Part shown: positions 949 to 24,422 of the stretch, piece by piece
Layout of the letters: each line of letters opens with the position of its first letter
How positions within the stretch are numbered: the first letter of the stretch is position 1
Source: Escherichia coli
GTDB taxonomy: Bacteria; Pseudomonadota; Gammaproteobacteria; Enterobacterales; Enterobacteriaceae
Length of the DNA stretch: 64,000 bases
Assembly: GCF_003334305.1 (NCBI RefSeq)
Contig: NZ_QOWS01000003.1
Direction: 5' to 3' (one strand)
Program-made: the position numbers and the translations under genes
Notes under the pieces: generated by a model
Database searches by the model: none
Told to the model about the DNA's origin: nothing
What the model saw: only the letters and a program-made list of their open reading frames with translations

Positions 949-1839
949 TCACGTCACAGGTACTTTTTTGGCACGATAAGCACTGGGCGAGCAACCGACT
1001 AAGCGATTAAAAAAGCGCGCAAAATAAGCCGGATCTTTAAAACCGAGTTGCCAGGCAATATTGTTCACGGCGTTATCAGAAAACAGCAGCAGCCGCTTGG
1101 CTTCTCGTAGCTGCCTGTCGAAAATCAACCGTTTTGGCGGACGGTTGGCAAAGCGGCGGCAGATGTCCGTGAGTCGTGATTCGGTGATATGCAGTTCGTT
1201 AGCGTAATCCGGTACTGTCCAGTGCTGATGAAAATGGCTTTCAATCAGCATATTAAAACGCTGGAACAGTTTTAATTCTCCGCGCATCCCGCTGGCGGCA
1301 TGGTCGTCGAGTTTTGCATTACGCAGCAGTAGGGTGAACACTGCCTGTGCCAGTAGCGTCAGGGTGTGTTCCCGTCCAGGCAGTTGTTCCACCGATTCCC
1401 GCTCTATCAGTTGCCAATAGTGTTCCAGCGCCGCCAGTTCGTCGGGTTTATCTGCCAGTGACAGGCAAATCCCCGGCAGGCCGAAGGTTTCCCGAGTGCC
1501 TGGATAAAGAACTTCCAGCAGGGGCCAGATCAGATCTTCCCGTACCGTCAACACATGACCGTCGGCGTCAGACTCCGTAATAAACGCATGAGGTACTGAC
1601 GGTGGCGTCAGGACAAACAGGGGCGCTTCCACCGAGTAGCGATGATCGTCAAGCTGTAGCTCAATCTGTCCGCTATTGAGGAAATGCATCTGAAAGTACT
1701 GTTCGTGGCGATGTGGCAGCATATGGCGGCCAAAAAAGGCCGCCATGCGGGCGAACGACTGATAATGCACATCGTCCGTGCCCAGGCTTTCATCGTACTC
1801 TTTGCTGATATCAATATTGGCAATCTGACGGTCACACAT
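949..1839 (-). CDS. hpaA: AraC/XylS-family transcriptional activator of hpaBC
   Basis: 296-aa ORF; C-terminal AraC-type HTH (…ANELHITESRLTDICRRF…); position between hpaX and hpaB as in described hpa clusters. Confidence 0.85.
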   Translation of the reverse strand: MCDRQIANIDISKEYDESLGTDDVHYQSFARMAAFFGRHMLPHRHEQYFQMHFLNSGQIELQLDDHRYSVEAPLFVLTPPSVPHAFITESDADGHVLTVREDLIWPLLEVLYPGTRETFGLPGICLSLADKPDELAALEHYWQLIERESVEQLPGREHTLTLLAQAVFTLLLRNAKLDDHAASGMRGELKLFQRFNMLIESHFHQHWTVPDYANELHITESRLTDICRRFANRPPKRLIFDRQLREAKRLLLFSDNAVNNIAWQLGFKDPAYFARFFNRLVGCSPSAYRAKKVPVT

Positions 1840-9090: not shown

Positions 9091-9114
9091 TAATCATTAA
9101 TATGTTAATGATTA
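9091..9114. promoter_or_regulatory. Inverted repeat in hpaG leader; candidate HpaR operator
   Basis: TAATCATTAA-tatg-TTAATGATTA perfect 10-bp arms, 26 bp upstream of hpaG start in the divergent hpaG/hpaR region. Confidence 0.45.
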
Positions 9115-9336
9115 CTTTTATTCCCGATTGCGTAGTTTGGCAAAAGTAAGTGATGTAAATGTGATCTAATTAACAAACTATTTACATTTAAAGATAATAA
9201 AATATTAAATATCAGCAAGTTAACAAAACATGCTCAATTTTGATAAAATGAAGAATTGCAGGGGCAGCGCAGTCCCGGTAACGTGATGATTAACTGTTTC
9301 TATATTAATGATTTTGAATTTTTCAGGGGAAAGATA

Positions 9337-23094: not shown

Positions 23095-23131
23095 TCCGCA
23101 TGATGCCGGGTTTACTTCCCCGGCAGTGCTT

Positions 23132-23920
23132 TCATTTCAGCGTACAATCGCCACATTGCTGCACATCCGGTAAGCGATAACGCTGGCAGCAGGTCCGGCG
23201 CACCAGCAGGCCGTCGCGTAGCACCACGGTACGCCAGAGTGGATTATCTTCACCGGTAGTAAGCGTTTTCTCAAAAAAGAGGGCATGGCGCAGCGATTCA
23301 ACCGTCGCCTCGCCGAGCAGTTGCTTCATCTCAGTAAGATACCAGTTGATCAAATAACCGGTATTACTCCAGATAAGTTTGCCGTTGATCTCTCCGGTCG
23401 CTTCTAGTGCCTGCACAACCGGAACCAGCGCCTGGCTGATTAACCTTTCCATTCGCTGCTGCGGCGAATGTGGTGTTGCGTTTTTATCTTCACACACATC
23501 GACCCAGAAACAGGCGGCACGGCCGGTTTCGTGAAACTCAGCATGGAAATGTTCCGGCGACACATCTAATGCCTTTTCCTGCGTCAGTAGCGCCAGCATT
23601 AATGGTGGCACCATCAGGCCGATATACCATTGTGCCCATAGTGAGATCAGCGGTTTGTTCTCGCGGATCATCGTTGGTTGGTTGCGATAGATATGATCGG
23701 AATAGACCGCGAGTAGAGAACTTAGCGCATTCGGTGATGACCATTGCGCCAGCGTCATGGCGTTAAGCGGAGCGGGTTCATCCAGGCGGATAAACTCCAG
23801 CAAATGTTCACGATGTTCGGCGATCGTCGCACGTACGGCTTGTGCAAGCCCAGCATCCTGTGGCTGGAGATGCGTTCGCCAGATAACATCTTCATAGAGC
23901 GGTGCGGAACGATAGGCCAT
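23132..23920 (-). CDS. fhuF: ferric-siderophore reductase (2Fe-2S)
   Basis: 262-aa ORF ending in C-C-x10-C-x2-C cysteine cluster. Confidence 0.9.
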   Translation of the reverse strand: MAYRSAPLYEDVIWRTHLQPQDAGLAQAVRATIAEHREHLLEFIRLDEPAPLNAMTLAQWSSPNALSSLLAVYSDHIYRNQPTMIRENKPLISLWAQWYIGLMVPPLMLALLTQEKALDVSPEHFHAEFHETGRAACFWVDVCEDKNATPHSPQQRMERLISQALVPVVQALEATGEINGKLIWSNTGYLINWYLTEMKQLLGEATVESLRHALFFEKTLTTGEDNPLWRTVVLRDGLLVRRTCCQRYRLPDVQQCGDCTLK

Positions 23921-23939
23921 AATCGGGATAGTAATCTAA

Positions 23940-24045
23940 ATGATAATGATTGCTAATCCTAGCGATAGGTTTACCCGATAGCAAGGGATTTCTCTGGCTT
24001 GCAAATGATAAAAATTATCATATGATATTGGTTTTCATTATCAAT
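23940..24045. promoter_or_regulatory. Fur boxes in divergent fhuF/yjjZ promoter region
   Basis: GATAATGATTGCTAATC (23942-23958) and AATGATAAAAATTATCAT (24004-24021) resemble the Fur consensus GATAATGATAATCATTATC. Confidence 0.6.
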
Positions 24046-24060
24046 GAAAGAGATGAAACC

Positions 24061-24297
24061 ATGTTGCAACGTACGCTGGGCAGTGGCTGGGGAGTGTTGC
24101 TGCCAGGATTGCTGATTGCAGGGCTGATGTATGCGGATTTATCACCGGATCAGTGGCGGATTGTCATTCTGATGGGATTAGTATTGACGTCGGTGATGCT
24201 GTATCACAAACAGTTACGGCATTACGTTTTGCTACCATCGTGCCTGGCGCTTATTGCTGCCATCATGCTGATGATAATGAATTTGAATCAGGGATGA
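24061..24297 (+). CDS. yjjZ: small membrane protein
   Basis: 78 aa from MLQRTLGSGWGVLLPGLLIAGL…; ORF-track start is an upstream extension. Confidence 0.75.
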   Translation: MLQRTLGSGWGVLLPGLLIAGLMYADLSPDQWRIVILMGLVLTSVMLYHKQLRHYVLLPSCLALIAAIMLMIMNLNQG

Positions 24298-24335
24298 AAA
24301 ATCAAGGAAGAAACAAGAAAGGAAGTAAAGATAAT

Positions 24336-24422
24336 TGGTGCGAGGGGGGGGACTTGAACCCCCACGTCCGTAAGGACACTAACACCTGAAGCTAGCGCGT
24401 CTACCAATTCCGCCACCTTCGC
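24336..24422 (-). tRNA. leuV: tRNA-Leu (anticodon CAG)
   Basis: Reverse complement reads GCGAAGGTGGCGGAATTGGTAGACGCGCTAGCTTCAGGTGTTAGTGTCCTTACGGACGTGGGGGTTCAAGTCCCCCCCCTCGCACCA, 87 nt with long variable arm and encoded CCA. Confidence 0.92.

What the first reader, a model, noticed from the sequence alone, without database searches (positions are those of the whole stretch)
23940..24045. Two Fur-box-like sites in the divergent fhuF/yjjZ promoter
GATAATGATTGCTAATC lies 22 bp upstream of fhuF and AATGATAAAAATTATCAT about 40 bp upstream of yjjZ. Both closely match the Fur consensus, consistent with iron-dependent repression of both genes.
Basis: partly seen in the sequence, partly recalled or inferred. 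Interest (0 to 1): 0.15.

Follow-up and report, generated by a model that had tools for sequence, protein, structure and literature searches.

The report
Known Fur operators of fhuF and yjjZ
The two sequences are real binding sites for the iron-sensing repressor Fur, lying between the E. coli genes fhuF and yjjZ, and they were already footprinted, seen in ChIP-exo and tied to iron-dependent repression of both genes, so this is textbook regulation.

Summary

I built a 19-bp Fur matrix from 18 other E. coli K-12 sites. Its four best hits in the whole 64-kb window all fall in this spacer:
- centre 24013: 23.1 bits
- centre 24030: 20.1 bits
- centre 23948: 18.9 bits
- centre 24036: 15.6 bits

Shuffled sequence does not reproduce this.

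The region is already characterised:
- Chen et al. 2007 footprinted a low-affinity Fur region (window 23914-23967) and a high-affinity one (23997-24049).
- ChIP-exo places Fur at 24013-24028.
- yjjZ tops the conserved Fur regulon table, and fhuF belongs to it.

These cover the yjjZ -10 element and transcription start.

The comparative work adds one point. In 80 species the proximal box always accompanies fhuF. The distal cluster accompanies yjjZ, even in Citrobacter, where another gene separates the two. These are therefore two separate operators, not a shared one.

Verdict: observation confirmed, interpretation supported, already known, low interest.

The parts
23132..23920 (-). fhuF coding sequence (262 aa, siderophore-iron reductase)
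   Evidence: ORF; RefSeq annotation of identical DNA.
23939..23957 (.). fhuF-proximal Fur box AATGATAATGATTGCTAAT (centre 23948, 18.9 bits).
   Evidence: Matrix scan. Inside the published low-affinity footprint. Present in 80 of 80 species loci.
23933..23951 (.). Weaker overlapping Fur box, shifted by 6 bp (centre 23942, 9.3 bits)
   Evidence: It matches the 9.3-bit second site of the weak cluster in Chen 2007. The TAGATT extension is conserved across genera.
23914..23967 (.). Published low-affinity Fur DNase I footprint 'fhuF2' (K-12 4603680-4603733)
   Evidence: Chen 2007 Table 3. Coordinate offset verified through the fhuF and yjjZ start codons.
23950..23951 (-). fhuF transcription starts (K-12 4603716/4603717)
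   Evidence: Chen 2007, Figure 5 legend, mapped to the window.
23956..23961 (-). fhuF -10 hexamer, TAGGAT here and TATGAT in K-12
   Evidence: Inferred from the published start site and the sequence. At least 90% conserved in 80 species.
23979..23984 (-). fhuF -35 hexamer TTGCTA, 17-bp spacer
   Evidence: Inferred from the sequence. The TTGC core is at least 90% conserved in 80 species.
23999..24004 (+). yjjZ -35 hexamer TTGCAA
   Evidence: Promoter scan. The same sigma-70 promoter is described in PMC10301672.
24004..24022 (.). Fur box AATGATAAAAATTATCATA (centre 24013, 23.1 bits). It fills the spacer between the yjjZ -35 and -10 elements (-30 to -12).
   Evidence: The centre equals Chen 2007's strongest site, 4603779 at 22.3 bits. 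The ChIP-exo peak at 4603779-4603794 overlaps it.
24021..24026 (+). yjjZ -10 hexamer TATGAT
   Evidence: and PMC10301672. Invariant in the 10 divergent loci and in 2 of the 4 Citrobacter loci; it is TATGCT in C. koseri.
24021..24039 (.). Fur box TATGATATTGGTTTTCATT (centre 24030, 20.1 bits; 22.4 in K-12). It covers the yjjZ -10 element and start site.
   Evidence: It is the best-conserved yjjZ box across Escherichia, Leclercia, Silvania and Citrobacter.
24027..24045 (.). Fur box ATTGGTTTTCATTATCAAT (centre 24036, 15.6 bits; 19.7 in K-12), overlapping the previous box with a 6-bp shift
   Evidence: The classical-consensus match at 24024-24042 has 3 mismatches.
23997..24049 (.). Published high-affinity Fur DNase I footprint 'fhuF1' (K-12 4603763-4603815)
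   Evidence: Chen 2007 Table 3.
24034..24034 (+). yjjZ transcription start (K-12 v3 4,605,777). The base is T here and A in K-12 and all relatives examined.
   Evidence: PMC10301672, mapped through the yjjZ ATG. SNP seen.
24061..24297 (+). yjjZ coding sequence (78 aa, DUF1435, PF07256)
   Evidence: Annotation; Pfam family of homologues.

Best explanation
The 140-bp spacer holds two back-to-back sigma-70 promoters whose start sites are 83 bp apart. Each has its own Fur operator.

When iron is plentiful, Fe2+-Fur dimers bind a tight cluster of three overlapping boxes (centres 24013, 24030, 24036). These boxes occupy the spacer, the -10 element and the start site of the yjjZ promoter, so RNA polymerase is excluded and yjjZ is silent.

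Fur also binds, more weakly, a box pair (centres 23948, 23942) that runs from the edge of the fhuF -10 element across its start site, and so represses fhuF. When iron is scarce Fur leaves and both genes are transcribed.

Shown here: the matrix scores, their significance, and the fact that each operator travels with its own gene across genera.

Inferred: the mechanism is promoter occlusion, judged from the positions of the boxes relative to the promoter elements.
For: Sequence and scores:
- The four top matrix hits of the 64-kb window are all in this spacer, at 23.1, 20.1, 18.9 and 15.6 bits. The matrix was built from 18 other K-12 sites.
- Chance is excluded by the shuffles.

Published experiments:
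- Chen 2007 found a high-affinity footprint at window 23997-24049 and a low-affinity one at 23914-23967. It also gives fhuF starts at 23951/23950 and published site strengths of 22.3, 20.8 and 16.1 bits (strong cluster) and 14.6 and 9.3 bits (weak cluster).
- The yjjZ start lies at window 24034. Its promoter is silent in wild type, active in a fur deletion mutant and active in vitro (PMC10301672).
- A ChIP-exo peak in iron-replete cells maps to 24013-24028. yjjZ is listed first of the 36-gene core Fur regulon, and fhuF is a member (PMC10164565).
- yjjZ is in the direct Fur regulon of strain CFT073 and is iron-repressed in Salmonella.

- The proximal box is present in 80 of 80 Enterobacteriaceae species loci.
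- The distal cluster is present in 10 of 10 loci where yjjZ is the divergent neighbour, and in 0 of 70 loci where it is not.
- In Citrobacter a GGDEF gene separates the two genes by about 1.4 kb. The cluster stays at -48/-31/-25 from the yjjZ ATG, and the single box stays at -33/-37 from the fhuF ATG.
Against: Nothing contradicts Fur repression.

Open points:
- Chen 2007 labelled both footprints as belonging to the fhuF promoter. In E. coli the distal cluster lies only about 65 bp from the proximal box, so it may help fhuF repression; that is not excluded.
- This strain carries T instead of A at 24034, which lowers two of the yjjZ boxes by 2.3 and 4.1 bits. No experiment has used this allele.
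- OxyR is also reported to bind the fhuF control region and may repress the gene, so Fur is not the only regulator there.
- The flattened ChIP-exo table for MG1655 puts the fhuF label on a row with coordinates about 10 kb away. Only the W3110 sheet clearly assigns one peak to both genes.
Confidence: 0.95

Rival explanations
1. One shared operator: the strong distal cluster is the main operator for both genes, as in other divergent iron-regulated promoters, and the proximal site is only an accessory.
For: Chen 2007 assigned both footprints to the fhuF promoter, and the distal one has the higher affinity. The two regions are close in E. coli, with centres 65 bp apart. Fur is known to extend along DNA at higher concentration.
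Against: The distal cluster lies at -47 to -94 from the fhuF start, upstream of its -35 element. In 70 species fhuF has only the proximal box and no distal cluster. In Citrobacter the cluster stays with yjjZ, 1.4 kb from fhuF. The proximal box is the best-conserved stretch of the fhuF upstream region.
Confidence: 0.1
2. Chance resemblance: the spacer is AT-rich promoter DNA that looks like the AT-rich Fur motif without being bound.
For: The spacer is 67% A+T. Fur-like hits of 8-15 bits do occur elsewhere in the window in AT-rich or coding DNA.
Against: Shuffles of the spacer with its own composition reach 18.9 bits in only 0.4% of trials and never give four hits of 15 bits or more. The boxes are conserved across genera while the flanks diverge.
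Confidence: 0.01
3. The boxes mainly serve another regulator, such as OxyR at fhuF, and Fur binding is secondary.
For: OxyR is reported to bind the fhuF control region and may repress fhuF. The spacer of the fhuF promoter holds a conserved CTATAG-type element next to the box.
Against: fur deletion alone derepresses both genes strongly in nine strains. The conserved bases are those of the Fur matrix. OxyR control would add to Fur control, not replace it.
Confidence: 0.03

Closest known systems
The fhuF/yjjZ Fur sites of E. coli K-12 (footprints fhuF1 and fhuF2 of Chen et al. 2007; the Fur sites that PMC10301672 cites from EcoCyc at the yjjZ promoter)
   Same: The box centres and relative strengths from my matrix reproduce the published ones.
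   Different: There are four single-base differences in the spacer: 23959 (fhuF -10 is TAGGAT instead of TATGAT), 23992, 24034 (yjjZ start base and two Fur boxes) and 24059.
Divergent Fur-controlled promoter pairs of the enterobactin cluster (fepA-fes, fepB-entC, fepD-entS)
   Same: Two divergent iron-repressed genes separated by a short spacer that carries clustered, overlapping Fur boxes (Chen 2007 Table 3; own knowledge of the fep/ent literature).
   Different: Here the two promoters are back to back, each with its own operator. The comparative data show that the operators separate cleanly when the genes are separated. How operators are arranged in the fep/ent pairs was not examined here.
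Classical 19-bp Fur box GATAATGATAATCATTATC, and its 9-1-9 reading
   Same: Site 2 matches 15/19 and the third box 16/19. All boxes fit the 9-1-9 matrix, and the boxes within each cluster are spaced 6 bp apart as in other Fur arrays.
   Different: Site 1 matches only 12/19 in the classical register: one perfect half-site and one degenerate half-site.

Membership tests
Fur operator (Fur box) | Sequence scores within the range of proven Fur sites under a Fur weight matrix | tested here: met
   Scores are 23.1, 20.1 and 18.9 bits, against a leave-one-out range of 18.2-27.8 for the 18 training sites. The fourth box, at 15.6 bits, falls below that range. The matrix excludes this locus.
Fur operator (Fur box) | More matches than chance gives, allowing for local AT-richness | tested here: met
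   window shuffles have a mean maximum of 13.4 bits. In spacer shuffles P(max >= 18.9) is 0.004, and 0 of 20,000 give four hits of 15 bits or more.
Fur operator (Fur box) | Position overlapping core promoter elements or the transcription start | tested here: met
   Published starts map to 23951/23950 and 24034. The boxes cover -6 to +13 of fhuF and -30 to +12 of yjjZ.
Fur operator (Fur box) | Direct binding of Fur protein to the DNA | not testable with these tools
Published DNase I footprints and gel shift on K-12 DNA (PMC2189734). The allele with T at 24034 has not been tested.
Fur operator (Fur box) | Occupancy in cells, and Fur- or iron-dependent expression of the adjacent genes | not testable with these tools
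   Published ChIP-exo peak and fur-deletion RNA-seq in nine strains (PMC10164565). A fur-deletion and in vitro start-site study (PMC10301672).
Fur operator (Fur box) | Conservation in orthologous promoters | tested here: met
   The proximal box is in 80 of 80 species. The yjjZ cluster is in 10 of 10 divergent loci and in 4 of 4 Citrobacter loci.
Single shared operator of a divergent promoter pair | One binding region that serves both promoters and stays with both genes | tested here: not met
   There are two separate footprints. The two regions segregate with their own genes when a GGDEF gene lies between them. 70 species have fhuF with the proximal box only.

The most novel reading that the evidence does not exclude
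The rare T at 24034 may change yjjZ regulation. Only 14 of 5,425 complete E. coli genomes are identical to the window across 23994-24074, and the base is A in every relative examined. The change alters the initiating base of the yjjZ transcript and weakens the two Fur boxes over the start site by 2.3 and 4.1 bits. This lineage may therefore express yjjZ differently or repress it less tightly.

A second possibility is that in Escherichia the nearby yjjZ cluster also strengthens repression of fhuF, whose own box is weaker here (18.9 bits) than in most genera (21.5 bits).
Probability: 0.12. Interest if true: 0.2.

Novelty: already known. Interest (0 to 1): 0.07.

Why it matters
It matters little beyond correct annotation. 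fhuF, whose promoter is the reporter in the classical Fur titration assay, and yjjZ, listed first in the conserved E. coli Fur regulon table, are standard examples of iron repression. The useful addition here is a clean comparative argument: the footprint historically called 'fhuF1' is really the yjjZ operator, and the weaker 'fhuF2' is the operator that fhuF carries in every genus. That could tidy database assignments, but it changes no concept.

Tried and rejected
A consensus count is too blunt here, so I replaced it with a matrix.
- The supplement of Chen 2007 that holds the site sequences is not held. I rebuilt a training set from the table's centre coordinates instead. My first v2-to-v3 coordinate offsets were off by 1-2 bp in two blocks. 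I corrected them block by block (+777, +1976, +1978, +1977), not site by site.
- The OxyR paper that footprinted fhuF (Zheng et al. 2001) could not be retrieved, so the OxyR site is not placed.
- A strong promoter-like match on the minus strand, TTGATA-16-TATGAT at 24044-24017, was considered as a second fhuF promoter under the distal cluster. I rejected it as a conserved element because its -35 hexamer varies even within Escherichia and is absent in Leclercia and Silvania. It probably arises from the palindromic Fur boxes.
- I tested whether fhuF's weaker box in E. coli is compensated by the nearby yjjZ cluster. Leclercia and Silvania also have yjjZ adjacent yet keep the stronger 21.5-bit box, so there is no clear pattern.

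Full report
**Observation**

The window around 23940-24045 is the 140-bp spacer between fhuF (23132-23920, minus strand, 262 aa) and yjjZ (24061-24297, plus strand, 78 aa, DUF1435). The stretch 23100-24320 is 100% identical to several complete E. coli chromosomes in which these genes are annotated.

The second, AATGATAAAAATTATCAT, lies at 24004-24021, with 39 nt between it and the yjjZ ATG. The coordinates and distances are therefore right.

**Matrix test**

The site list of Chen et al. 2007 is not held. I therefore took the centre coordinates of 18 strong K-12 Fur sites from their Table 4, leaving out fhuF. I fetched each from NC_000913.3, corrected the version offset block by block, and built a symmetrised 19-bp matrix. 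Its consensus is AATGATAATCATTATCATT. Leave-one-out scores of the training sites run from 18.2 to 27.8 bits.

The four best hits in the 64,000-base window all lie in this spacer:

| Centre | Span | Score (bits) | Note |
|---|---|---|---|

A fifth box at centre 23942 scores 9.3 bits. A matrix built from only the nine footprinted or gel-shifted sites keeps the first three places, with 24036 fifth and all five spacer boxes still scoring positive.

Chance does not explain this. In 200 dinucleotide-preserving shuffles of the window the maximum averaged 13.4 bits. In 20,000 shuffles of the AT-rich spacer alone, 18.9 bits was reached in 0.4% of trials, and four hits of 15 bits or more were never seen.

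The classical 19-mer consensus is a poorer tool here. With up to three mismatches it finds only 24024-24042 on the minus strand. Site 2 matches it 15/19 and site 1 only 12/19.

**What is already published**

The spacer differs from K-12 at four bases: 23959, 23992, 24034 and 24059.

Chen et al. 2007 (PMC2189734) predicted two clusters in this region with their own information-theory model, at 22.3, 20.8 and 16.1 bits and at 14.6 and 9.3 bits. They then footprinted the region with DNase I:
- A high-affinity region at K-12 4603763-4603815, which is window 23997-24049.
- A low-affinity region at 4603680-4603733, which is window 23914-23967.

Their strongest site, 4603779, is window 24013, exactly my top hit. 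They give the fhuF transcription starts as 4603717/4603716, which is window 23951/23950. I verified the coordinate mapping through both start codons.

The ChIP-exo tables of Gao et al. 2023 (PMC10164565) list a Fur peak in iron-replete MG1655 at 4603779-4603794, which is window 24013-24028. The W3110 sheet assigns one peak to both fhuF and yjjZ. In the flattened MG1655 sheet the fhuF label sits on a row with distant coordinates, so I do not lean on that row. In the same study yjjZ is listed first of the 36-gene core Fur regulon (log2 change in fur deletion mutants of 5.5-11.3 in nine strains), and fhuF is a member (2.0-8.5).

The ROSE study (PMC10301672) places the yjjZ start at 4,605,777, which is window 24034. 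Its sigma-70 promoter (TTGCAA...TATGAT) is silent in wild type, active in a fur deletion mutant and active in vitro. yjjZ is also in the direct Fur regulon of the uropathogen CFT073 and is iron-repressed in Salmonella.

**Anatomy**

Combining the published starts with the sequence gives the following layout.

- **fhuF promoter.** The -35 element is TTGCTA (23984-23979), followed by a 17-bp spacer, the -10 element TAGGAT (23961-23956) and the start at 23951/23950. The proximal box (23939-23957) runs from the edge of the -10 element across the start, about -6 to +13. The weaker box extends further downstream.
- **yjjZ promoter.** The -35 element is TTGCAA (23999-24004), the -10 element is TATGAT (24021-24026), and the start is at 24034. 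The three distal boxes sit at -21, -4 and +3 relative to the start, so between them they cover the spacer, the -10 element and the start.

The two starts are 83 bp apart and the promoters are back to back. Both arrangements are classic promoter occlusion. That step is an inference from position.

**Comparative test**

A scan of one genome per species with FhuF returned 80 Enterobacteriaceae loci.

The proximal box is present in all 80, at 15-25 bits and 26-38 bp upstream of the ATG. Its half AATCATTATCATT and the following TAGATT are nearly invariant, and the -35 TTGC core and the -10 TAGGAT are at least 90% conserved.

A yjjZ homologue lies divergently next to fhuF in only 10 loci: four Escherichia, four Leclercia and two Silvania. 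The distal cluster is present in exactly those 10 and in none of the other 70.

Citrobacter provides a natural experiment. A GGDEF gene sits between fhuF and yjjZ, putting them about 1.4 kb apart. The three-box cluster remains at -48, -31 and -25 from the yjjZ ATG, the same offsets as in E. coli. A single box remains at -33 or -37 from the fhuF ATG.

So there are two separate operators. The footprint historically named fhuF1 is the yjjZ operator. Whether it also helps repress fhuF in E. coli, where it lies only about 65 bp away, is not excluded.

**Strain-specific detail**

The base at 24034 is T in the window. It is A in K-12, in an O145 strain that otherwise matches over that stretch, and in all ten divergent relatives. 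Only 14 of 5,425 complete E. coli genomes are identical to the window across 23994-24074.

This base is the published yjjZ start, and it lies in two Fur boxes, which drop from 22.4 to 20.1 bits and from 19.7 to 15.6 bits. The strongest box is untouched, so any effect is likely small. It is untested.

At 23959 the window has the family-wide TAGGAT. K-12's TATGAT is the derived form.

**Verdict**

This is an already known, well-characterised regulatory region, so interest is low.

Noticed in passing
window 24034: T here; A in K-12, in an O145 strain and in all ten Escherichia, Leclercia and Silvania relatives. Only 14 of 5,425 complete E. coli genomes match the window exactly over 23994-24074. 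The base is the published yjjZ transcription start and lies in two Fur boxes, which lose 2.3 and 4.1 bits.
   Followed up: partly
window 23959: C here makes the fhuF -10 hexamer TAGGAT; K-12 has A, giving TATGAT. TAGGAT is the form conserved in at least 90% of 80 species, so the K-12 laboratory reference carries the derived hexamer, which is closer to consensus.
   Followed up: partly
window 24336-24422: There is only one tRNA-Leu(CAG) between yjjZ and rsmC. K-12-like strains, including one otherwise identical over fhuF-yjjZ, carry three tandem copies, so the window is 236 bp shorter. A few complete genomes share the single-copy form.
   Followed up: partly
window 24270-24288: Fur-matrix hit GATGATAATGAATTTGAAT (14.7-16.0 bits) inside the last codons of yjjZ, just upstream of the tRNA-Leu gene. 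No evidence of binding was sought.
   Followed up: no
window 1227-1245, 9101-9119 and 9301-9319: Weaker Fur-matrix hits: 14.9 bits inside hpaA, and 11.6-14 bits in or beside the hpaR-hpaG spacer. These stretches are annotated hpa (4-hydroxyphenylacetate) genes and occur in only about 2,000 of 5,426 complete E. coli genomes.
   Followed up: partly
window 23962-23978, and the aligned fhuF promoter spacer in L025-L100: The spacer between the fhuF -35 and -10 elements carries a conserved element (consensus TATCTATAG[C/T]TAGG in most genera). It is a candidate for the OxyR site reported at fhuF. The paper with that footprint could not be retrieved.
   Followed up: no
L101-L104 (Citrobacter), about 1170-2250 and 1948-1959: A GGDEF-domain gene lies between fhuF and yjjZ in Citrobacter. 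In two of the loci it contains internal Fur-matrix hits of 14.9 and 17.3 bits.
   Followed up: no
window 24017-24044, minus strand: Promoter-like match TTGATA-16-TATGAT (10 of 12) pointing towards fhuF, inside the yjjZ Fur cluster. Its -35 element is not conserved outside part of Escherichia. It is probably a by-product of the palindromic Fur boxes.
   Followed up: partly
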